Part shown: positions 29,365 through 60,529 of the stretch, in pieces
Numbering within the stretch: the first letter of the stretch is position 1
Layout: each line of letters starts with the position of its first letter
Assembly (NCBI GenBank): GCA_017507855.1
Contig: JAFWAE010000015.1
Location: forward strand, 1,126 to 65,125
Length of the DNA stretch: 64,000 nt
Direction of reading: 5' to 3'
DNA from: Clostridia bacterium
GTDB lineage: Bacteria > Bacillota > Clostridia > Oscillospirales > RGIG5554
Position numbers and translations under genes: made by a program
The notes under the pieces: model-generated
Database searches by the model: none
Seen by the model: only the letters and a program-made list of their open reading frames with translations
What the model was told of the DNA's origin: nothing

Positions 29365-30546
29365 TTAGCTGCGCGGCTCTTCCCACAGCGGGGACATGGC
29401 GCGCAGTCTTTGGGTCGTGCTTTCCAGGGCCCGGAAAATATAGTCCGCGTCTTCTTCCGTGTTTTCTTTATCCAGGGAAATGCGCACCGAGCCGTGGGCC
29501 GTTTCTGCCTTCAGGCCCAGGGCCAACAATACGTGAGAGGGGTCCAACGATCCGGTAGAGCAGGCCGAGCCTGTGGAAACGGCCACGCCCTTCATATCCA
29601 TCAGCAATACAATGGATTCTCCCTCCACACAATCCACCGACACGTTCAGATTTCCTGGCAATCTGCGGGAGCTGTCCGCAGGGCCGTTGAGACGGGTGCG
29701 GGGAATGTTGGTTAAGATCTGTTGGCAAAGGCTGTCCCTCAAAGCGGCAATGCGGGGCATTTCCGTGTCCATCTCTGCACAGGCCTTCTTTAAAGCGGCA
29801 GCCATGGCTACCGCACCTGCCACGTTTTCGGTACCGGCACGCTTGCCGCGCTCCTGTCCGCCGCCGTTGATAAACGAAGGCAAAAGCACGGAACGGCGTA
29901 CGTACAAAGCCCCAATGCCCTTGGGGGCATGAAATTTATGACCGGAAAGGGACAGCAGATCCACCCCAAGCTCCGCAACGTTGATGGGCACGTGACCTAC
30001 AGCCTGCACCGCATCGGTGTGAAACAGAATCCCGTGATCGTGAGCAATGGAGGCCAGCTGCTTGATAGGCTGCAGCGTACCCACTTCGTTGTTGGCAAAC
30101 ATGATCGTGGCCAACACCGTGTCGGGTCGAAGGGCCGCTTCAAAGGCCGCGGGGTCAATAAAGCCCTCCCCGTCCACATCCAGGTAAGTCACCTCCCAGC
30201 CTTCCTTTTCCAGGCGCTGCAAAGTGTGCAAAATAGCGTGGTGCTCAATCTTACTGCTTACGATATGGTGGCCCTTCTTGGCCTTTTGGCGGGCCACACC
30301 CCATAAGGCCCAGTTATCGGCCTCACTGCCGGAGGCGGTAAAATAGATCTCGTTAGGCTGGGCCCCCAGGCAAGTAGCCACTTGGGCACGGGCCTCCTCC
30401 AGCCCCTCGTGAGCCTGACGTCCCAGGCTGTAAAGGGAAGACGGATTTCCAAAACCCTCGCGCAGATAGGGAAGCATAGCCAAAACGGCCTCTTCATCCG
30501 GGCGGGTGGTTGCAGCATTGTCAGCATAAATGTAGCGGGTAGACAT
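29365..30546 (-). CDS. nifS: cysteine desulfurase
   Basis: PLP-Lys SGHKFHAPKGIGALY, active-site loop STGSACSTGS. Confidence 0.9.
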   Translation of the reverse strand: MSTRYIYADNAATTRPDEEAVLAMLPYLREGFGNPSSLYSLGRQAHEGLEEARAQVATCLGAQPNEIYFTASGSEADNWALWGVARQKAKKGHHIVSSKIEHHAILHTLQRLEKEGWEVTYLDVDGEGFIDPAAFEAALRPDTVLATIMFANNEVGTLQPIKQLASIAHDHGILFHTDAVQAVGHVPINVAELGVDLLSLSGHKFHAPKGIGALYVRRSVLLPSFINGGGQERGKRAGTENVAGAVAMAAALKKACAEMDTEMPRIAALRDSLCQQILTNIPRTRLNGPADSSRRLPGNLNVSVDCVEGESIVLLMDMKGVAVSTGSACSTGSLDPSHVLLALGLKAETAHGSVRISLDKENTEEDADYIFRALESTTQRLRAMSPLWEEPRS

Positions 30547-31185: not shown

Positions 31186-31272
31186 GCCGGAATGATGGAA
31201 TTGGCAGACGTGCGGGACTCAAAATCCCGTGGTAGCGATACCGTGCGGGTTCGACCCCCGCTTCCGGCACCA
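31186..31272 (+). tRNA. tRNA-Leu (anticodon CAA), class II, CCA encoded
   Basis: Folded by hand: acceptor GCCGGAA/TTCCGGC, 3-bp D stem, anticodon stem CGGGA/TCCCG with loop CTCAAAA, long variable arm GGTA-GCGA-TACC, T arm GCGGG-TTCGACC-CCCGC, then ACCA. Confidence 0.93.
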
Positions 31273-31279
31273 AACAGTA

Positions 31280-31333
31280 AAAATCCGAACCCAAAGCCGG
31301 CAGGCGAAGAGTTCGGATTTTTTCGTTTTTTTT
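31280..31333. terminator. bidirectional terminator shared by tRNA-Leu and the convergent XRE gene
   Basis: AATCCGAAC (20-nt loop) GTTCGGATT flanked by an A-run upstream and T-runs downstream. Confidence 0.65.
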
Positions 31334-31342
31334 ATTTGATTT

Positions 31343-31591
31343 TCAACCGGGTAACTGTTTGGTATGATCAACGGTATATTGTTCAAAGAAGTCGTCTGTT
31401 GTACATCTCAAAATCCGAGCAAGATGCGGCAGAAGAATGATGTCGGGACAGCCGATGTTTTGCTCCCACTTGCATACCGCTTGCGCAGACACGCCGATCA
31501 GCTTGCCAAAATCTTTTTGTGTGAGATTGTTTTCGCTGCGATAAGCCTTGATTTTATCCGCAATCGTAATGTGATAGGTGGGCATAGTCAT
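31343..31591 (-). CDS. XRE-family helix-turn-helix protein (82 aa)
   Basis: LTQKDFGKLIGVSAQAVCKWEQN HTH. Start ATG overlaps the stop of the upstream ATPase gene (ATGA). Confidence 0.85.
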   Translation of the reverse strand: MTMPTYHITIADKIKAYRSENNLTQKDFGKLIGVSAQAVCKWEQNIGCPDIILLPHLARILRCTTDDFFEQYTVDHTKQLPG

Positions 31592-33657
31592 ATCGTATCA
31601 CCGCCCTTTACCATATTGATTTTTCGCATACGGTTGACGAGTGCCATCAGCTCCTGCTTGCGAGGCAGATCAAGGAATCTTTCGCAAGTCGTAAAGAAAG
31701 ATGAATACAAAAAGTCAATTCCTTCCTCGTCAATTCGAGCATACAGATCATTGATCTTCCTTTCGATATCGATCTTTCTGTCGTTGTTCGACACCTCCAA
31801 ATAACGAAGCATAAAGCCAAGCGTGTCAAGCTGACGGGGGGAAACGATGTCGTGAAGTCCGCGCACATCGATCTTTTCGTCCCCGATCATGACGAATCCC
31901 ATATCCGAAACCTCAAGCTTTTCGGTGCCGCTACCTTCGGGGTAAGAGGAAAAGCGGTCAGAATAAAGCGTTCTGCTTTGTTGCCAATTTTCGGACGATG
32001 GAAATACGCTCGTCACATGATAGGAACTGCAAATATTCTTTGATTTTTCGGTTGCGTCGTGAATCAGATAATCCTCCATCATATAGATCTTATCGGCAAC
32101 AGAAAGATACTCACCGCTACCACCGATAACAAGGATCGTGGAAACACCGTGCGTTTTGTAAAGCTCGTTGACTCGGTCGGTAAATGGCGTAATTGGCTCT
32201 TTTTCAATCAACTCCTTCATCATACGGTCGCGGATCATAAAGTTGGTAGCACTTCTGTCCTCGTCAATGAGCAAGAGCTTGGCATTACAGTCTACAGCCT
32301 CCATAATGTTCGCCGCTTGCGAGGTCGATCCCGAAGCGTGATCGGTGGAGAAATCGCTTGTGTCACCACCCGGCAACCACTTGATAAAGGGCGAAATATT
32401 GACGTGTTTGACACTTCTGCCGTCCTCTGCGGATATAGTTACGGCACTTTCGTCGGTGATGCACAGCTCACGTCCATCACCAAGCGTGTGATCATAGATA
32501 CCTGCGGATATTGCATCAAGCAACGTTGATTTGCCCGAATATCCACCGCCCGTGATGACGGTAACACCTTTTTTGATACCCATGCCCTGCACACCGCAGA
32601 TTTCAATCTCATCATCGGGGGTGGACCGGAACGGAATCGCGTTTTCCATAGGAAGATCTGTCCCTTTGGATCGTGGCAGAATACTTCCGTTTGCCACAAA
32701 AGCGCAGTAGTCGCTGTTCTTCAGCCACGCACGGATGGATGCCTGCTTTTCGGCAAGTTCCAGTGCCCGGTTTAAACGGACAATATCAAATTCCGCAATA
32801 AACCGGTCCACCGCGTCCGGCAGATCGCGGCACAGCATCTGGATGGTCTTGCGGAGTTTTCGCTTTGGTAGTTGTACCTGCATACGAATACAAAGACACA
32901 TTTTCGGAGGAGACATCTGATCATCCGGCAGAAGGTACACAGTTGATCCCGAACCATATTCATAATCCCGCTGGGGACACATGGCAAAGTAGGCGGTATT
33001 TCGGGTCAGAATTTCTCCACCGGGTGTATGAAGATAATACTTGCCGTTTTCATTGTCGGGACGAGAGCGGTTGTACAATTCGGCATTGAGTGCGTCGATA
33101 TATTTTTTGAATTCACGGAGGCAAAAATCCGCCGTGGCAGTCGTATAGTTCTCGACACCGATGTTCTCTGCCGGAATACTCCAGGTCAACGTAGGTTTAT
33201 CCTGAGCAAGTTTATGGGTAGTTTCGATATGAAATGACATATCCTCATACCAATACGTGGGTTCGTTATGATATTCCGGGGCAAGCGAATGACCGTCCCA
33301 GGCGCTGGAAGGGAAGTTTACTTCCGTTCTTCCGTCATACATTTCTTTATAAGTAGCGGTATCATTCTGCATCTGATGTAGGTAATATTTCAGTCGTTTC
33401 AAAGGTATCTCTCCTTCCAAATCGCCGGCGATCATATCATATGGTATAATTATCGTTATAGTTGGTTTATCCTGTGCGAGCTTGTGAGTTCCCGTAATCT
33501 CAAACCCCACATCTCCATTATAGTATGTAGGACTATAATCGACATAAGGCTCCCTTGTTGATGCAGGATCAATGATCGTCATACTGCCCTCATATATCGC
33601 CTTGTATGTGGTCGTGTTAGCCTCCATAGATAATATTTTGTTTTTCAATCTTTTCAC
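31588..33657 (-). CDS. ABC-class ATPase (PF09818/COG3044 type) with duplicated N-terminal module
   Basis: GTG start 6 nt after AAGAGGGG. GVTVITGGGYSGKSTLLDAI (Walker A), ASGSTSQAANIMEA, KLLLIDEDRSATNFMIRD (Walker B), EPITPF, VIGGSGEY. Two roughly 85-90-aa N-terminal repeats. Confidence 0.85.
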   Translation of the reverse strand: MKRLKNKILSMEANTTTYKAIYEGSMTIIDPASTREPYVDYSPTYYNGDVGFEITGTHKLAQDKPTITIIIPYDMIAGDLEGEIPLKRLKYYLHQMQNDTATYKEMYDGRTEVNFPSSAWDGHSLAPEYHNEPTYWYEDMSFHIETTHKLAQDKPTLTWSIPAENIGVENYTTATADFCLREFKKYIDALNAELYNRSRPDNENGKYYLHTPGGEILTRNTAYFAMCPQRDYEYGSGSTVYLLPDDQMSPPKMCLCIRMQVQLPKRKLRKTIQMLCRDLPDAVDRFIAEFDIVRLNRALELAEKQASIRAWLKNSDYCAFVANGSILPRSKGTDLPMENAIPFRSTPDDEIEICGVQGMGIKKGVTVITGGGYSGKSTLLDAISAGIYDHTLGDGRELCITDESAVTISAEDGRSVKHVNISPFIKWLPGGDTSDFSTDHASGSTSQAANIMEAVDCNAKLLLIDEDRSATNFMIRDRMMKELIEKEPITPFTDRVNELYKTHGVSTILVIGGSGEYLSVADKIYMMEDYLIHDATEKSKNICSSYHVTSVFPSSENWQQSRTLYSDRFSSYPEGSGTEKLEVSDMGFVMIGDEKIDVRGLHDIVSPRQLDTLGFMLRYLEVSNNDRKIDIERKINDLYARIDEEGIDFLYSSFFTTCERFLDLPRKQELMALVNRMRKINMVKGGDTI

Positions 33658-33770
33658 GGGAAACCCCTCTTTCGTTATTCAAAAGTATTGCCATCGCGGT
33701 CATGATAAAAAAACTTTTCTTTCGGATTTGCTGAATTTTCTGTTTGACTCGTATTCGAGGGCTTTCCACG

Positions 33771-33797
33771 TAAAACAAAAAGCACCCCTTGGGGTGC
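33771..33797 (-). terminator. intrinsic terminator 2 in the ATPase leader
   Basis: Minus strand: GCACCCC aa GGGGTGC followed by TTTTTGTTTTA. Confidence 0.75.
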
Positions 33798-33835
33798 ATA
33801 AAGCTATACGTTTACCAAAGACAGATATTTTGGCA

Positions 33836-33864
33836 AACAAAAAACACACCCGAGATCGGATGTG
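33836..33864 (-). terminator. intrinsic terminator 1 in the ATPase leader
   Basis: Minus strand: CACATCCG atct CGGGTGTG (one G-U pair) followed by TTTTTTGTTTG. Confidence 0.75.
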
Positions 33865-33891
33865 CATCAAAAAACTATATAAACCTTGCGT

Positions 33892-33945
33892 TCAGCATAC
33901 CGCAGGCGATACATATGACATCCGACAAATATAAGTGTTCATCAT
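33892..33945 (-). CDS. 17-codon micro-ORF (MMNTYICRMSYVSPAVC), leader peptide or small peptide
   Basis: AAGGAGG 8 nt upstream of ATGATG. Lies between a near-consensus promoter and two terminators. Below the ORF-track size cutoff. Confidence 0.3.
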   Translation of the reverse strand: MMNTYICRMSYVSPAVC

Positions 33946-33980
33946 AGCAATCGCCTCCTTTGGCTGAATTTATAATTTGG

Positions 33981-33994
33981 TCCTATTAATAGGA
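33981..33994. promoter_or_regulatory. perfect 14-bp palindrome TCCTATTAATAGGA overlapping the -10/TSS
   Basis: Read directly. Candidate operator. Confidence 0.4.
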
Positions 33995-34019
33995 TAGCAT
34001 ATTTTCGGCTGATTGTCAA
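33991..34019 (-). promoter_or_regulatory. sigma-70-type promoter driving micro-ORF/leader (and probably the ATPase-XRE genes)
   Basis: Minus strand TTGACA - 17 nt - TATCCT. Confidence 0.6.
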
Positions 34020-34023
34020 TCAG
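34009..34023. promoter_or_regulatory. 7-1-7 palindrome CTGATTGTCAATCAG overlapping the -35
   Basis: Read directly. Candidate operator. Confidence 0.4.
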
Positions 34024-34178
34024 ACTCGGGAAAGTTTTCATCAACTGTCGGTTTAAAAATGACAATTGCTAAATTAAGAATTTGATTCGGATTTATCACC
34101 ACTCACTGCACCGACAGAAGAGACTTTTTTCAATCGGAATACCGTACAAATATAGCCTATCCCGCCAACGCCGAATCG

Positions 34179-34207
34179 TTGAAAACAAAGCAGATTTATG
34201 GTATAAT
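34179..34207 (+). promoter_or_regulatory. promoter of the methyltransferase gene
   Basis: TTGAAA - 17 nt - TATAAT. About 100-nt leader to ATG 34314. Confidence 0.55.
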
Positions 34208-34313
34208 CAGTTAAACGAATTTGAGATGGGCTAACCGTATGCGTCGCGCGCCTTTTCTTTGCCTCCCCCGAACACACATCCCATTGCCTGTCTTTACCAA
34301 AGGAGAACTCTTT

Positions 34314-58331: not shown

Positions 58332-58694
58332 TTAATCCTGCGTTTCCTGCGAAGCCAATTCGCGGATGCGCTCCAAAAGCGGCTCCGTTGCCGAACGGTA
58401 GGACGTATAAAGCAAGATCTCCCCCAGCTTGTCGCAAAGGGAAAGGATCTCCTCGGAAGCCTGTGCACGGCGGTCAAACTGTGCCATCAAGCCAAGTTTT
58501 TCCTCCATTTGGCAAAGCACTTCTTCTCCGCGCTTGATGCTGTCACGCACACCCTGACGGGTAATGCGGGCATGCTCGGAGATCTCGGCCAAAGACAGAT
58601 CCGCGTTGTAGTACAAATCAAACACATCACGCTGTTTTTCTGTGAGGATCTCCCCGTAAAAATCGAACAAACGGCCTACATGAAAGTCCTTCAT
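58332..58694 (-). CDS. ylxM: YlxM-type putative DNA-binding protein (UPF0122)
   Basis: LTEKQRDVFDLYYNADLSLAEISEHARITRQGVRDSIKR. Lies upstream of ffh. Confidence 0.8.
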   Translation of the reverse strand: MKDFHVGRLFDFYGEILTEKQRDVFDLYYNADLSLAEISEHARITRQGVRDSIKRGEEVLCQMEEKLGLMAQFDRRAQASEEILSLCDKLGEILLYTSYRSATEPLLERIRELASQETQD

Positions 58695-58751
58695 CTGTCT
58701 TTCGACCCCTTTCTGTAAAGCAAAAAACTTTACAGAAATATATTATACACA

Positions 58752-58779
58752 TTTTTTTGAAAAAGTCAAGGCCTTTTTG
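58752..58779 (-). promoter_or_regulatory. promoter of the ylxM-ffh operon
   Basis: Minus strand TTGACT - 16 nt - TATAAT. The transcript would begin at an 8-bp hairpin (CTGTAAAG/CTTTACAG, 58723..58745). Confidence 0.55.
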
Positions 58780-58823
58780 CAAAAAAAGAACGCTTTTGGC
58801 GTACCTGCAAAGCAGTTTTATTC

Positions 58824-58859
58824 AAAAAAGACATGTTCAACTTTGAGCATGTCTTTTTT
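58824..58859. terminator. free-standing bidirectional terminator-like hairpin
   Basis: AAAAAAGACATG (12-nt loop) CATGTCTTTTTT. Lies between divergent ylxM and the XRE-TPR gene. Confidence 0.55.
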
Positions 58860-59010
58860 GCTGCATGATTACGGCCTATGTGATACAACGTCTTTGAAAA
58901 TCAAAGCACAGCTATACTTTTATTCAACAAATAATTCGTGGAATAATTCTCAAAATGTAATATAATAAAATCACAAAAGCGCTTTTGAATCTTTTGGGGA
59001 GGAAAAAACT

Positions 59011-60102
59011 ATGTCTATTGGTTCTACCATCAAACGTTTGCGCCGAGAGAAGAATATTACGCAAGAACAACTTGCAGAGCATCTCGGAATCACATCGCGC
59101 GCAATATCGCAATGGGAGTGCGACCGAACCGCTCCCGATATTTCGCAGATCCCTGCACTCTGTCATATTTTTGATATTTCTTCGGATGTTTTGCTGGAAA
59201 TCGATATTGAAAAGAATAACGAAGAAATCAAAAAATACTTGAATACAGCACGCAACCTGTGTCACCAAGGAAAGTGGGAAGAATACACCGCCATTCTTCG
59301 TGAAGCAAACAAAAAATATCCGCGCGATTATAAAATCATGCAGACCCTTGCGGATGCAATTGTGAACGAATATTCCCGAAAAGGTATCGAGGAATACGGC
59401 GAGGTGTTTGATCTTTGCAATCGAATCCTTGCGGAATGTACCGACAGCACCACACGATATGAGGCGATCGACACACTCGGAACCGCCTACGGATACGCGG
59501 GTGAAAAAGACGAAATGATAAAGCTTGCTGCAGAAATGCCCAAAACTCGTTTTTCGTATGAAAACTTTATGGTATATCGCTGGAAAGGAGATGAAGGTTT
59601 TAAGGAACGGCAGGAATATATGCATTTTTTAGTTAATGAGTTGTTATCAATGATTCATTGTCTAAAAGGTCATTGTGATGACAACGGAAAAATGATATAT
59701 TCGTGGGAAGAAAGAAAAGAGCTGAATCAATTTGAAATAGCTCTTCTTGAATGTCTCTACCCGGACGGCGATTATCAGCAAAATGCATATTACGGTGCAA
59801 TGGCAAGTTATTTTATGTTTGAGGATCTTTTGAACAAACAAGACTATGATAATGCTTGGTATTGGCTTGAACGGTGTGTAGATTACAATGTTCATGCAGA
59901 TACTTTCGATTTTAATGCTCCGCATTCAACGCCCATCCTTCGCGGATATGCAAACAGCGGAGTGATTCCGGAAGCAAGGGGAAACTATTCACAATCCTTC
60001 CTTGATTGGATCACTACCGATGATGAAGTAGCTGTTTTGCGTTGCGATTCGCGTTATGAAGCTCTCGTAAATCGCTTAAAAAAAGTTGCAAAGAAACCGT
60101 AA
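59011..60102 (+). CDS. XRE-HTH regulator with TPR-like helical C-terminal domain
   Basis: GGGGAGG SD. ITQEQLAEHLGITSRAISQWECDRTAP HTH, then about 290 aa of helical repeats. AT-rich gene (24/60 G+C in line 59221). Confidence 0.75.
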   Translation: MSIGSTIKRLRREKNITQEQLAEHLGITSRAISQWECDRTAPDISQIPALCHIFDISSDVLLEIDIEKNNEEIKKYLNTARNLCHQGKWEEYTAILREANKKYPRDYKIMQTLADAIVNEYSRKGIEEYGEVFDLCNRILAECTDSTTRYEAIDTLGTAYGYAGEKDEMIKLAAEMPKTRFSYENFMVYRWKGDEGFKERQEYMHFLVNELLSMIHCLKGHCDDNGKMIYSWEERKELNQFEIALLECLYPDGDYQQNAYYGAMASYFMFEDLLNKQDYDNAWYWLERCVDYNVHADTFDFNAPHSTPILRGYANSGVIPEARGNYSQSFLDWITTDDEVAVLRCDSRYEALVNRLKKVAKKP

Positions 60103-60188
60103 ATAATTGCCTACCTTCGCGTAGCTTTGCTTTTGGGTTCCAAAAACACCAGGCGTAACACACCATACCCTGCGAAGCAAGGTGTTTG

Positions 60189-60226
60189 AAAAGGACAGAG
60201 AATGTAAAAACTCTCTGTCCTTTTGT
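60189..60226 (+). terminator. intrinsic terminator after the XRE-TPR gene
   Basis: Perfect 13-bp stem AAAAGGACAGAGA / TCTCTGTCCTTTT. Confidence 0.8.
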
Positions 60227-60232
60227 CGTAGA

Positions 60233-60250
60233 GGCGATTCACAAATCGCC
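60233..60250. repeat. REP-like palindromic element, copy 1
   Basis: GGCGATT caca AATCGCC followed by CGTTTTTGTTTT. Confidence 0.5.
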
Positions 60251-60279
60251 CGTTTTTGTTTTGCAATGTTTTTAGGCGG

Positions 60280-60297
60280 ACGATTCGCGAATCGCCC
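60280..60297. repeat. REP-like palindromic element, copy 2
   Basis: aCGATTCGCGAATCGccc. 15/18 identical to copy 1 (gcgattcacaaatcgccc). Confidence 0.5.
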
Positions 60298-60402
60298 CTG
60301 CAATAAACTGTTGCGTTGTTTCTGCTCTGACTTTTTTATTTGTATTCTGTTTATCGGCATAGCCTCTTTTGAACCCCGCCACTATGGCGGGGTTTCCGTT
60401 AT

Positions 60403-60436
60403 ACAACAAAAGAGCCCGCCGGAACGGACTCTTTTG
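60403..60436 (-). terminator. intrinsic terminator after the solute-binding protein gene
   Basis: Minus strand AGAGTCCG ttccgg CGGGCTCT (one G-U pair) followed by TTTTGTTGT. Confidence 0.65.
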
Positions 60437-60529
60437 GCTTTAGAAAAAAAGACTGCAAACACCCATTCAAACCGACCTGTTTCCATCGGCGCTCCTTTTC
60501 AGGTGCGCCAAATGTACAAAACGGATGAA

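What the first reader, a model, noticed from the sequence alone, without database searches (positions are those of the whole stretch)
31186..34210. AT-rich islet at tRNA-Leu carrying an ABC-class (COG3044/PF09818-type) ATPase plus XRE module: best candidate for an undescribed system
The sequence turns visibly AT-richer between tRNA-Leu(CAA) and the promoter of the methyltransferase gene. Hand counts of single 60-nt lines give 23/60 G+C at 31681 and 24/60 at 33421, against 35/60 at 30001 in nifS. The patch holds only two real genes, both convergent with the tRNA. One is a 689-aa ATPase with the PF09818 core (GGGYSGKSTLLDAI, ASGSTSQAANIMEA, LLLIDEDRSATNFMIRD, EPITPF). The other is an 82-aa XRE HTH protein. 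As far as I know this ATPase family has no established bacterial function; a trypanosome relative, MRB1590, is an RNA-binding ATPase. A large NTPase with a small HTH partner in a compositionally foreign patch beside a tRNA gene is the usual setting for defence, abortive-infection or TA-like modules. I found no integrase and no repeat of the tRNA 3' end, so this may be an old insertion or a remnant.
Basis: partly seen in the sequence, partly recalled or inferred. Interest (0 to 1): 0.72.

Follow-up and report, generated by a model that had tools for sequence, protein, structure and literature searches.

The report
Attenuator-controlled mobile ATPase–XRE operon
Next to a leucine tRNA gene lies a horizontally acquired two-gene operon (an ATPase of unknown bacterial function plus its own small DNA-binding regulator) preceded by a conserved RNA switch of the kind that turns genes on when ribosomes stall, so it looks like a translation-stress or antibiotic response module, not a phage-defence or toxin-antitoxin pair.

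Summary
G+C drops to 0.42-0.50 at 30.5-34.5 kb against about 0.55.

In 62 other species the ATPase sits in different, mostly housekeeping surroundings, with no defence-gene enrichment and no PADLOC match. Half the loci lack the XRE gene, which argues against an antitoxin.

The new finding is a roughly 300-nt leader, conserved in most homologous loci of at least 65% identity. It holds a strong promoter, a 17-codon uORF, two tandem intrinsic terminators and a second uORF overlapping the ATPase start. Folding of 31 leaders and pair counts on 48 support a three-state switch with the same logic as the vmlR and bmrB-bmrCD leaders.

A palindrome, T[C/A]AACC-N3-GGTTGA, lies upstream of the -35 box in 23 of 23 loci with XRE and 0 of 21 without, so it is the likely XRE operator. 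Heterodimeric ABC exporters follow the pair in about a fifth of loci. A convergent tRNA-Leu adjoins the module in 6 of 57 species.

Best reading: a mobile, self-regulated operon induced by ribosome stalling. The ATPase's molecular role is unknown.

The parts
31186..31272 (+). tRNA-Leu(CAA), convergent with the operon. Its 3' end faces the 3' end of the XRE gene.
   Evidence: ARAGORN and Rfam RF00005 at 48.8 bits. A convergent tRNA-Leu lies within 300 nt of the module end in 6 of 57 species loci.
31282..31319 (.). Bidirectional terminator hairpin (AATCCGAAC...GTTCGGATT) shared by the tRNA and the operon.
   Evidence: Inverted repeat I1. The same hairpin plus CTACTGTTTGGTG is conserved in L013, L017, L028 and L064 beside tRNA-Leu genes with three different anticodons.
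31343..31591 (-). 82-aa XRE/HTH_3 regulator. Its start overlaps the ATPase stop by 4 nt (ATGA), implying translational coupling.
   Evidence: Pfam HTH_3 at 8.3e-10. It lies directly downstream of the ATPase, or of a second paralogue, in 23 of 44 assessable species loci.
31588..33657 (-). 689-aa ABC-class ATPase of the MRB1590/COG3044 family. The GTG start is preceded by an AGAGGGG ribosome-binding site.
   Evidence: PF09818 at 1.9e-102 and PF21117 at 1.2e-14. The AF2 model has pLDDT 92.4. Foldseek best matches are 5d6a and MRB1590 4yix/4yj1, with TM about 0.8. All family-invariant Walker A, Walker B and signature residues are present.
31993..32778 (-). PF09818 P-loop core (aa 294-555): Walker A GGGYSGKST, signature-like ASGSTSQ, Walker B LLLIDED.
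   Evidence: invariant G370, G375, K376, T378, S442, G443, S446, D465, E466, D467.
33142..33654 (-). Two tandem copies of an N-terminal unit of about 85 aa (aa 2-86 and 87-172; KRLKxxLxxMxxNTxTYxxMYxG...THKLAQDKPT).
   Evidence: Self-match in tblastn and alignment A5. Copy number among close homologues is 1, 2 or 3.
33617..33703 (-). uORF2 (28 codons), overlapping the ATPase start out of frame. Its ribosome-binding site is degraded in this copy.
   Evidence: A small ORF with a GAAAGGAG site is conserved in most loci. The window has GAAAGAAAAG instead.
33772..33797 (-). Terminator T2 (GCACCCCAAGGGGTGC followed by a U-run).
   Evidence: Terminator scan. It is present about 140 nt upstream of the start in most loci and nearly invariant in alignment A1.
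33810..33838 (-). Hairpin GTTTGCC...GGTAAAC between T1 and T2, of unknown role.
   Evidence: Predicted in the centroid fold and conserved in most leaders.
33838..33865 (-). Terminator T1 (GCACATCCGATCTCGGGTGTGT followed by a U-run). Its 5' arm is segment d and its 3' arm is segment e.
   Evidence: Terminator scan. The stem is invariant in 48 distinct leaders. It is unique in the window, with 0 expected by chance.
33892..33945 (-). uORF1 (MMNTYICRMSYVSPAVC, 17 codons plus stop). It contains segment c (TCGGATGT, 33918-33925), which is complementary to the 5' arm of T1.
   Evidence: Present with the same ribosome-binding site in about 40 loci. It is read in other frames in some lineages while the nucleotides stay conserved.
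33951..33960 (-). Ribosome-binding site of uORF1 (AAGGAGGCGA), which pairs with ATCGCCT inside uORF1 to form helix P1, the anti-antiterminator.
   Evidence: RNAalifold consensus. The P1 and T1 pairs together form in 96% of cells over 48 leaders. The ribosome-binding site is sequestered in 29 of 31 free folds.
33991..34019 (-). Promoter: TTGACA, 17 nt, TGcTATCCT (extended -10).
   Evidence: Promoter scan, 10 of 12 matches with TG. Conserved as TTGACA-17-TATACT in the other loci.
34041..34054 (-). Putative XRE operator AAACCGACAGTTGA (consensus T[C/A]AACC-N3-GGTTGA), about 29 nt upstream of the -35 box.
   Evidence: Single match in the window. Present in 23 of 23 species loci with XRE and 0 of 21 without. 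Nucleotide homology of XRE-bearing loci to the window begins exactly here.

Best explanation
The AT-rich patch is a horizontally acquired, self-contained operon that has landed next to the 3' end of tRNA-Leu.

**Layout (on the - strand).** Palindromic operator, strong sigma-70 promoter, about 300-nt leader, MRB1590/COG3044-type ATPase, translationally coupled XRE regulator, then a bidirectional terminator shared with the tRNA.

**Shown.**
- The layout is conserved across dozens of gut Clostridia species in unrelated genomic surroundings.
- The leader is specific to this ATPase.
- The operator co-occurs perfectly with the XRE gene.

**Inferred: how the leader works.** It is a ribosome-sensing transcription attenuator with three states.
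- With no ribosome, the ribosome-binding site and start codon of uORF1 pair with the middle of uORF1 (helix P1). Terminators T1 and T2 then form and transcription stops.
- A ribosome held on the start or first codons of uORF1 opens P1. That frees UCGGAUGU (segment c) to pair with ACAUCCGA (segment d, the 5' arm of T1).
- The released 3' arm of T1 (segment e) can then pair with the 5' arm of T2 (segment g), so both terminators are bypassed.
- A ribosome that translates on through segment c restores termination.

The operon would therefore switch on when initiation or early elongation is blocked. That is the state produced by peptidyl-transferase-centre antibiotics and other translation stress, as described for vmlR and bmrB-bmrCD.

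**Inferred: the XRE.** It binds the operator and feeds back on the promoter. Whether it activates or represses is unknown.

**Most speculative.** The ATPase acts on RNA or ribosomes, or works together with the multidrug-type ABC exporters that are co-transcribed with it in about a fifth of loci, to relieve that stress.
For: **Family and fold.**

**Mobility.**
- None of the 62 species loci shares the window's neighbours.
- The ATPase gene's G+C is 0.41-0.58 against 0.39-0.62 for the flanks, r=0.48, with differences in both directions.
- Nucleotide homology to the window starts at the operator and ends within the XRE gene.

**Leader.**
- The ribosome-binding site, uORF1, T1 and T2 are conserved.
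- The promoter and both terminators were found independently by the pattern scan. There is no promoter-like site between T2 and the ATPase start.
- No Rfam family matches.
- uORF1 is read in different frames while its nucleotides, start and approximate end stay conserved.
- An exact-pattern scan of metagenomes gave 38 hits. 31 have the ATPase 150-320 nt downstream and 4 sit at contig ends.

**Switch.**
- With a ribosome footprint on the ribosome-binding site through AUG+15, segments d and c pair in 31 of 31 leaders.
- Free RNA forms T1 in 29 of 31 and sequesters the ribosome-binding site in 29 of 31.
- With the antiterminator enforced, segments e and g pair in 17 of 29 leaders.
- On 48 distinct leaders the OFF structure pairs in 96% of cells and the ON structure in 87%, against 22-48% for slid controls.
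- The ON structure has 13 pairs with changes on both sides, a count that 0 of 500 shuffles reached.

**Same logic as published attenuators.** PMC9226507 and PMC4191407.

**Operator.** 23 of 23 against 0 of 21. The strict motif count gives 20 of 23 against 0 of 21 with Fisher p=1e-9, and the three exceptions were resolved. Extra operator and promoter copies sit upstream of the paralogous ATPase.

**ABC exporters.** They are the most common neighbours: ABC_tran in 13 and ABC_membrane in 9 of 139 flanking proteins.
Against: - No experiment supports any of this. The inducing signal is inferred only from RNA geometry.
- T1, T2 and segment c are almost invariant. Covariation cannot prove those pairings, and a sequence-specific RNA-binding protein could explain the invariance equally well.
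- In free nascent RNA the antiterminator is already the minimum-energy fold in 16 of 31 leaders. The direction of the switch therefore depends on kinetics that cannot be computed here.
- With the antiterminator enforced, T2 still forms in 10 of 29 leaders.
- The structures tested were derived from one of the aligned sequences, which inflates the percentage of cells paired.
- MRB1590 binds RNA through its N-domains (PMC4538832), and that region is not conserved here. RNA binding cannot be carried over.
- 80% of loci have no ABC exporter.
- The window copy has a weakened uORF2 ribosome-binding site and a GTG start.
Confidence: 0.5

Rival explanations
1. One reading: a defence, abortive-infection or toxin-antitoxin-like pair. 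A large NTPase effector is held in check or regulated by a small XRE partner, in a foreign islet at a tRNA.
For: - The patch is foreign in composition and lies beside a tRNA.
- The XRE gives weak similarity to antitoxin, C-protein and RmrA HTH models.
- A serine recombinase, two reverse transcriptases and one or two methyltransferases occur among the neighbours in a few loci.
Against: - There is no PADLOC family match beyond generic P-loop or HTH hits.
- The flanks are mostly housekeeping genes, with no defence enrichment among 139 neighbours.
- 21 of 44 species loci keep an intact ATPase and leader with no XRE.
- The XRE gene lies downstream, and its operator sits upstream of the -35 box rather than over the promoter.
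- No close relative was found on plasmids or phages: only 14 of 72,556 plasmid records and 3 uncultured contigs matched, at about 35-40% identity in nearly every case.
- A uORF attenuator is not a known feature of defence operons (general knowledge).
Confidence: 0.1
2. The leader is a switch read by a trans-acting factor rather than by the ribosome. The factor could be the ATPase itself (autoregulation by an RNA-binding ATPase), another RNA-binding protein, or a small-molecule ligand (an unrecognised riboswitch). In this view uORF1 is incidental or only modulates the switch.
For: - Long stretches are invariant at the nucleotide level (T1, T2 and the CTTATATTTATCGGATGTCATAT core), although the ATPases are only 65-80% identical.
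- The eukaryotic homologue binds RNA.
- uORF1 is read in different frames in different lineages, so the peptide sequence is not what is conserved.
Against: - The strong ribosome-binding site, the start codon and the approximate end of uORF1 are conserved even where the frame changes.
- Overlapping mutually exclusive pairings already explain the invariance.
- No Rfam family matches.
- The RNA-binding N-domain of MRB1590 is not conserved here.
Confidence: 0.2
3. uORF1 is a real small-peptide gene (a signal peptide, bacteriocin or RiPP precursor) with its own terminators. The ABC exporters and the LytTR/histidine-kinase pairs seen nearby would export and sense it, and the ATPase would be an accessory.
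For: - ABC exporters are adjacent in about 9 loci, and LytTR plus GHKL kinase pairs occur in 3-4 loci.
- The peptide ends in Cys in many loci.
Against: - The ORF is read in a second frame in about a quarter of the loci and a third in at least one, giving unrelated peptides (xTYIYRMSYVSPAVC, xxLYLSDVI..., MIKTYIIGCHIYRLQTL) on the same nucleotides.
- There is no promoter between T2 and the ATPase.
- Most loci have no exporter or kinase.
Confidence: 0.05
4. An ordinary core housekeeping gene pair that merely happens to be AT-rich. There is no insertion and no special regulation.
For: All same-species metagenomic contigs carry the module at this site, and no empty site was found.
Against: - The locus is not syntenic in any of 62 other species.
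- The gene's G+C is decoupled from that of its flanks.
- The sharp homology boundaries at the operator and within XRE, and the conserved leader, argue for a discrete transferable unit.
Confidence: 0.03

Closest known systems
MRB1590 (KRBP72) of Trypanosoma brucei and the Vibrio vulnificus 'ABC-class ATPase' structure 5D6A (Pfam PF09818 / COG3044)
   Same: - PF09818 core plus the MRB1590_C domain.
- Sequence E-values of 1e-72 to 1e-66 to the PDB chains.
- The predicted fold superposes with TM about 0.8.
- The Walker A, Walker B and signature residues are invariant.
   Different: - The N-terminal region carries one to three copies of an 85-aa unit not covered by any Pfam model. ABC_N matches only weakly, at 22.9 bits against a cut-off of 26.5.
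- The RNA-binding pore of MRB1590 is built from its own N-domains, so RNA binding is not implied here.
- No bacterial member has a known function.
Ribosome-mediated transcription attenuators of antibiotic-response genes in Firmicutes: the vmlR leader (PMC9226507) and bmrB-bmrCD (PMC4191407)
   Same: - A short uORF with a strong ribosome-binding site.
- Anti-antiterminator, antiterminator and intrinsic-terminator alternatives that overlap the uORF.
- A downstream ATPase, or ABC exporter genes in about a fifth of loci.
- Predicted induction by a ribosome stalled early on the uORF.
   Different: - There is no sequence similarity and no Rfam family.
- There are two tandem terminators linked by a 'domino' pairing between segments e and g.
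- A second uORF overlaps the main start codon.
- The regulated gene is a single-NBD PF09818 protein, not an ABC-F factor or a transporter.
- Induction has not been tested.
Small XRE/Cro-type autoregulators such as restriction-modification controller (C) proteins and type II antitoxins
   Same: - The protein is about 80 aa with an HTH_3 domain.
- It has a short palindromic operator next to its own operon's promoter.
- There are weak HMM hits to RstR, DicA, HipB and C-protein models.
   Different: - The gene is last in the operon, is translationally coupled to the ATPase, and is absent from half the loci.
- The operator is centred about 29 nt upstream of the -35 box.
- No toxin or restriction-modification partner is present.
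tRNA-associated genomic islets
   Same: - The G+C is foreign.
- The module boundary lies at the 3' end of a tRNA-Leu gene, repeatedly and at three different isoacceptor genes.
   Different: - There is no integrase and no direct repeat of the tRNA 3' end.
- Most copies of the module are not next to a tRNA.

Membership tests
PF09818 / COG3044 / MRB1590-type ABC-class ATPase | PF09818 P-loop domain above Pfam's gathering score | tested here: met
   342.5 bits against a cut-off of 23.2, aa 294-555.
PF09818 / COG3044 / MRB1590-type ABC-class ATPase | MRB1590 C-terminal domain (PF21117) | tested here: met
   55.2 bits against a cut-off of 27, aa 580-682.
PF09818 / COG3044 / MRB1590-type ABC-class ATPase | Canonical N-terminal domain (PF20446, ABC_N) | tested here: inconclusive
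   22.9 bits, below the cut-off of 26.5. Only profile positions 60-159 match. The first 172 aa are two copies of a lineage-specific unit.
PF09818 / COG3044 / MRB1590-type ABC-class ATPase | Three-domain fold like solved members | tested here: met
   AF2 pLDDT 92.4. Foldseek gives 5d6a at E=1e-44 (TMt 0.82) and 4yix/4yj1 at TMt 0.80.
PF09818 / COG3044 / MRB1590-type ABC-class ATPase | RNA binding through a basic pore in a dimer; RNA-related ATPase activity | not testable with these tools
   The pore residues of MRB1590 lie in its N-domain, which is not alignable here.
Ribosome-mediated transcription attenuator (vmlR / bmrB type) | Short uORF with a ribosome-binding site in the 5' leader of the regulated gene | tested here: met
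   uORF1 has an AAGGAGG site in the window and in about 40 other loci.
Ribosome-mediated transcription attenuator (vmlR / bmrB type) | Intrinsic terminator between the uORF and the main ORF, with no internal promoter | tested here: met
   T1 and T2 were found by the scan, and no promoter-like site follows them. They are conserved.
Ribosome-mediated transcription attenuator (vmlR / bmrB type) | Mutually exclusive antiterminator and anti-antiterminator that overlap the uORF | tested here: met
   Constrained folds of 31 leaders. Pair counts on 48 leaders give 96% (OFF) and 87% (ON) of cells paired, against 22-48% for slid controls. Covariation is modest because the core is invariant.
Ribosome-mediated transcription attenuator (vmlR / bmrB type) | Induction by ribosome stalling, dependent on uORF translation | not testable with these tools
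   Needs reporter, toeprint and in vitro transcription assays.
Type II toxin-antitoxin (XRE antitoxin with toxin) | Obligatory co-occurrence of toxin and antitoxin genes | tested here: not met
   21 of 44 species loci have the ATPase without XRE. One metagenomic contig has the leader and XRE without the ATPase.
Known anti-phage defence systems (PADLOC-DB 2.0) | Match to a defence-protein HMM and/or a setting in a defence island | tested here: not met
   The best ATPase hit is E=0.003, on the P-loop only. The neighbours show only generic ABC hits, two reverse transcriptases and one or two methyltransferases out of 139 proteins.
ARE ABC-F ribosome-protection proteins | Two ABC_tran nucleotide-binding domains joined by a P-site tRNA interaction (linker) motif | tested here: not met
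   There is a single P-loop domain. ABC_tran scores 18.4 bits, below the cut-off of 25. No ABC-F NCBIfam model matches.
tRNA-integrated genomic island | Integrase gene and direct repeat of the tRNA 3' end at the far boundary | tested here: not met
   There is no integrase ORF and no second copy of the tRNA 3' 25-mer within 3 mismatches.
tRNA-integrated genomic island | Atypical composition and a boundary at a tRNA 3' end | tested here: met
XRE autoregulator with cognate operator | Palindromic site at its own promoter that co-occurs with the regulator gene | tested here: met
   T[C/A]AACC-N3-GGTTGA occurs in 23 of 23 loci with XRE and 0 of 21 without. Binding itself is not testable here.

The most novel reading that the evidence does not exclude
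The bacterial PF09818/MRB1590-type ATPases of this clade are a new class of translation-stress effector. They would be RNA- or ribosome-acting ATPases, distinct from ABC-F proteins. In this reading they are induced by ribosome stalling through a dedicated two-terminator attenuator, confer tolerance or resistance to ribosome-targeting antibiotics, and spread horizontally among gut Clostridia, sometimes together with multidrug-type ABC exporters.
Probability: 0.2. Interest if true: 0.85.

Novelty: new variant of a known kind. Interest (0 to 1): 0.6.

Why it matters
PF09818/COG3044 is a widespread protein family, with about 835 clusters at 50% identity at E<=1e-30. Two of its members have solved structures, yet no bacterial function is known.

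This operon gives the first concrete regulatory handle on the family. The leader's design predicts when the gene is switched on (ribosomes held at the start of a uORF), and a defined operator pairs with a defined regulator.

That turns 'function unknown' into a short list of cheap experiments: reporter induction by translation inhibitors, MIC shifts, and ribosome or RNA binding.

If the ATPase does mitigate antibiotic or translation stress, it would be a new mobile tolerance or resistance determinant circulating in livestock and human gut Clostridia. Current resistance-gene and defence-gene catalogues would not detect it.

Tried and rejected
1. **Rfam.** A search of 30.5-35 kb at E<=1 found only the tRNA.
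2. **PADLOC.** Searches of the two proteins and of 139 neighbours gave no defence signal.
3. **NCBIfam.** No named family matches the ATPase or its paralogue.
4. **Literature.** Searches for PF09818, COG3044, MRB1590, 'ABC-ATPase domain-containing protein' and 'predicted ATPase of the ABC class' found no bacterial function.
5. **Plasmid and phage collections.** Only distant homologues turned up, on megaplasmids, chromids and 3 uncultured contigs. The module is not typically plasmid- or phage-borne. Annotated distant homologues in Staphylococcus epidermidis and Fulvitalea have neither XRE nor an attenuator.
6. **Empty site.** Exact-protein look-ups of the neighbouring RNase H and methyltransferase showed that every same-species contig long enough carries the module.
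7. **att-like repeats.**
   - No repeat of the tRNA 3' end was found.
   - A 9-11-nt AAATCCGAA(C) repeat flanks the module in the window and in L013 only. I judged it too short and too rare to call.
8. **Separate structure model of the N-terminal 175 aa.** It reached only pLDDT 50, so I ran no fold search on it.
9. **Two family scans** failed on a residue limit and were repeated with fewer sequences.
10. **Covariance model of the leader.** I did not build one. The exact-pattern metagenome scan and the regex surveys already answered the specificity question.

Full report
**1. Observation**

The compositional dip is real. One-kb windows fall to 0.417-0.499 G+C between 30501 and 34500, against 0.52-0.59 over most of the 64 kb. 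A second dip lies at 58-61 kb.

ARAGORN and Rfam place tRNA-Leu(CAA) at 31186-31272 on the + strand. Two ORFs lie on the - strand:
- a 689-aa ORF at 31588-33657
- an 82-aa ORF at 31343-31591, which overlaps the first by 4 nt

Pfam scores for the large protein:
- PF09818, E=1.9e-102, aa 294-555
- MRB1590_C, E=1.2e-14, aa 580-682
- ABC_N, weak and below its cut-off

The small protein is HTH_3. The GTG start is preceded by AGAGGGG and corresponds to the conserved MKRLKNK start of homologues.

There is no integrase. The last 25 nt of the tRNA have no second copy.

**2. The ATPase**

It is a true member of the MRB1590/COG3044 family.
- phmmer finds PDB 5D6A (Vibrio vulnificus 'ATPase of the ABC class') and MRB1590 (4YIX, 4YIY, 4YJ1) at 1e-72 to 1e-66.
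- An AlphaFold2 model built on 76 sequences has pLDDT 92.4. It superposes on those structures with TM about 0.8.
- All family-invariant Walker A, signature and Walker B residues are present.

The first 172 residues are two tandem copies of an 85-aa unit (KRLKxxLxxMxxNTxTYxxMYxG...THKLAQDKPT). Among the 120 closest protein clusters:
- about 94 have one copy (about 604 aa)
- 25 have two copies (about 689 aa)
- at least one has three copies (775 aa)

In MRB1590 the RNA-binding pore is made by its own N-domains (PMC4538832). That region is not conserved here, so RNA binding cannot simply be carried over.

The family holds about 835 clusters at 50% identity at E<=1e-30. I found no paper giving a bacterial function, no NCBIfam name and no PADLOC family.

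**3. Relatives elsewhere**

A scan of one genome per species returned 62 loci. All are gut metagenome-assembled genomes of Oscillospiraceae, Acutalibacteraceae or other Clostridia, at 49-93% protein identity. None shares the window's neighbours (methyltransferase, DUF6512, ferredoxin, RNase H, NifS/NifU, MnmA).

Gene G+C is 0.41-0.58 while the flanks span 0.39-0.62. The correlation is r=0.48, and the differences run from -0.145 to +0.088. The window's difference is -0.086.

Nucleotide homology to the window starts sharply at window ~34056 (the operator) in XRE-bearing loci, and at the -35 box in XRE-less ones. It ends inside the 3' end of the XRE gene.

This is the signature of a discrete unit that has moved between genomes of different composition. 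Within the window's own species, every contig long enough carries the module. No empty site was found.

**4. XRE and its operator**

An XRE homologue lies directly downstream of the ATPase, or after a second paralogous ATPase, in 23 of 44 assessable species loci. The other 21 have an intact ATPase with no XRE.

A palindrome, T[C/A]AACC-N3-GGTTGA, lies about 29 nt upstream of the -35 box. In the window it reads AAACCGACAGTTGA at 34041-34054 on the - strand.
- By a strict motif it is present in 20 of 23 XRE loci and 0 of 21 others (Fisher p=1e-9).
- The three apparent exceptions carry it in the opposite orientation or further upstream, making 23 of 23.
- Additional copies of the operator, the promoter and the start of the leader precede the paralogous ATPase in L004, L019 and L021.

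Related loci are not independent, which weakens the p-value. However, XRE-less loci such as L028 and L030 (76% identity) are interleaved with XRE-bearing ones at 70-82%. I conclude that the site is the XRE operator and that XRE is a dispensable autoregulator. Whether it activates or represses is open, because the position is activator-like.

**5. The leader**

Upstream of the ATPase in the window and in most loci of at least 65% identity there is a conserved region of about 300 nt. In window coordinates on the - strand it holds:

| Element | Sequence or description | Coordinates |
|---|---|---|
| Promoter | TTGACA, 17 nt, TGcTATCCT | 34019-33991 |
| Ribosome-binding site of uORF1 | AAGGAGG | - |
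| uORF1 | MMNTYICRMSYVSPAVC | 33945-33892 |
| Terminator T1 | GCACATCCGATCTCGGGTGTGT plus U-run | 33865-33838 |
| Hairpin | GTTTGCC..GGTAAAC | - |
| Terminator T2 | GCACCCCAAGGGGTGC plus U-run | 33797-33772 |
| uORF2 | overlaps the ATPase start out of frame | 33703-33617 |

The independent pattern scan found exactly this promoter and these two terminators. It found no promoter-like site between T2 and the gene. Rfam has nothing.

uORF1 keeps its ribosome-binding site, its start and its approximate end. In about a quarter of lineages it is read in another frame, and at least one locus uses a third. The resulting peptides are of the types ...TYIYRMSYVSPAVC...LYLSDVI... and MIKTYIIGCH..., while the nucleotides stay the same. 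What is conserved is therefore an RNA sequence that is translated, not a peptide.

An exact-pattern scan of metagenome contigs (TCGGATGT-N35-65-CACATCCG-N2-8-CGGGTGTG) gave 38 hits:
- 31 are followed by the ATPase 150-320 nt downstream
- 4 sit at contig ends
- 1 is followed directly by XRE
- 1 (L101) has no ATPase match on a 1-kb contig and was not examined further
- 1 is a chance hit in a high-GC contig

**6. How the leader probably works (inferred)**

Segment c (UCGGAUGU, in uORF1) is complementary to segment d (ACAUCCGA, the 5' arm of T1). The ribosome-binding site and AUG of uORF1 pair with GUCAU...AUCGCCU inside uORF1 to form helix P1.

Folds of 31 leaders:
- A ribosome footprint over the ribosome-binding site through AUG+15 makes d pair with c in 31 of 31.
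- The free RNA forms T1 in 29 of 31 and sequesters the ribosome-binding site in 29 of 31.

With the antiterminator enforced, the freed 3' arm of T1 (segment e) pairs with the 5' arm of T2 (segment g) in 17 of 29 leaders. One decision can thus disarm both terminators.

Pair counts on 48 distinct leaders:
- The OFF structure pairs in 96% of cells and the ON structure in 87%. Controls with partners slid by 1-3 columns give 22-48%.
- The ON structure has 13 pairs with changes on both sides, a count that 0 of 500 shuffles reached.

Caveats:
- The cores of T1, T2 and segment c never vary, so they say nothing either way.
- The tested structures came from one of the aligned sequences.
- In 16 of 31 free nascent RNAs the antiterminator is already the minimum-energy fold, so kinetics decide the outcome.

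The design has the same logic as the B. subtilis vmlR leader. There, antibiotic-stalled ribosomes on a uORF prevent an anti-antiterminator (PMC9226507). It also matches bmrB-bmrCD (PMC4191407).

**7. Neighbours**

The only recurrent neighbours are pairs of half-transporter ABC exporters (ABC_membrane plus ABC_tran, MsbA/Tet(46)-like but below every equivalog cut-off). They lie directly after XRE, or next to the module, in about 9 distinct species loci.

LytTR plus GHKL kinase pairs occur in 3-4 loci. PADLOC finds no defence enrichment among 139 flanking proteins.

Plasmid and phage collections hold only distant homologues. Annotated distant members in S. epidermidis and Fulvitalea lack both XRE and the attenuator.

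**8. tRNA-Leu**

A convergent tRNA-Leu lies within 300 nt of the module end in 6 of 57 species loci:
- the window and L017 (anticodon CAA)
- L013 (TAG)
- L064, L028 and L049 (CAG)

Assuming about 6 tRNA-Leu genes per 2.5 Mb, the chance probability is about 2e-11 (the genome figures are my assumption).

Five of the six share the terminator AAATCCGAACC..GGTTCGGATTT and the junction CTACTGTTTGGTG. That hairpin is absent from module ends without a tRNA.

The mechanism of insertion is unknown, since there is no integrase and no att repeat.

**9. Verdict**

- The architecture (operator, promoter, attenuator, ATPase, XRE) and its mobility are well supported.
- Induction by ribosome stalling is a reasoned inference.
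- The ATPase's molecular role is unknown.
- The defence/TA interpretation is not supported, because XRE is dispensable, the setting is not a defence context, and there are no defence-family matches.
- The closest known things are the MRB1590/5D6A protein family for the effector and the vmlR or bmrB type of attenuator for the control region. The combination appears to be undescribed.

Noticed in passing
window 58500-60500; ORF 59011-60102 (+): A second AT-rich patch (G+C about 0.41) holds a 363-aa protein with an N-terminal XRE HTH and a long helical C-terminal part. It is 33% identical over 159 aa to a 373-aa protein family found near the ATPase module in L015, L040 and L050.
   Followed up: partly
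L065:894-2986: Between the XRE gene and tRNA-Leu(CAA) lie three repeats of about 140 nt, each beginning with a fragment of the tRNA 3' end (GGTCGGGGTCGAAGC). A transposase-bearing insertion is also present. This looks like a much-used integration site.
   Followed up: no
L092:1593-1982: A metagenomic contig in which the conserved leader is followed directly by the XRE gene, with no ATPase.
   Followed up: partly
window 33142-33654 (-); proteins P0002, P0005, P0045: The N-terminal 85-aa unit of the ATPase varies in copy number (1, 2 or 3) among close homologues. There are also longer forms of 776 and 919 aa with other N-terminal extensions.
   Followed up: partly
L111, L118 (same species as the window): Several same-species metagenomic contigs end inside the ATPase gene. 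This would fit assembly breaks at a sequence shared between genomes or at its internal repeat.
   Followed up: no
window 33701-33725 and 33655-33657 (-): In this copy the ribosome-binding site of uORF2 is degraded (GAAAGAAAAG against the consensus GAAAGGAGAA), its first ATG is lost, and the ATPase starts with GTG instead of ATG. Expression may be weaker than in relatives.
   Followed up: no
L004:8102-10214; L019:7627-9736; L021:5830-7939; L040:7326-9110: A second, paralogous PF09818 ATPase (597-617 aa, about 32% identical, without the N-terminal unit) is inserted between the first ATPase and XRE, or after XRE. In L004, L019 and L021 it has its own copy of the operator, the promoter and the start of the leader.
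   Followed up: partly
window 33981-33994 (-): A perfect 14-bp palindrome, TCCTATTAATAGGA, overlaps the -10 box and the presumed transcription start in the window only. Other loci have a small covarying stem-loop (for example GTAATCAAATTAC) a few bases further downstream.
   Followed up: no
window 34081-34094 and 31281-31294; L013:2964 and 5477: A short repeat, AAATCCGAA(C/T), flanks the module in the window and in L013. One copy lies upstream of the operator and the other is the 5' arm of the tRNA terminator. It is too short and too rarely shared to call an att site.
   Followed up: partly
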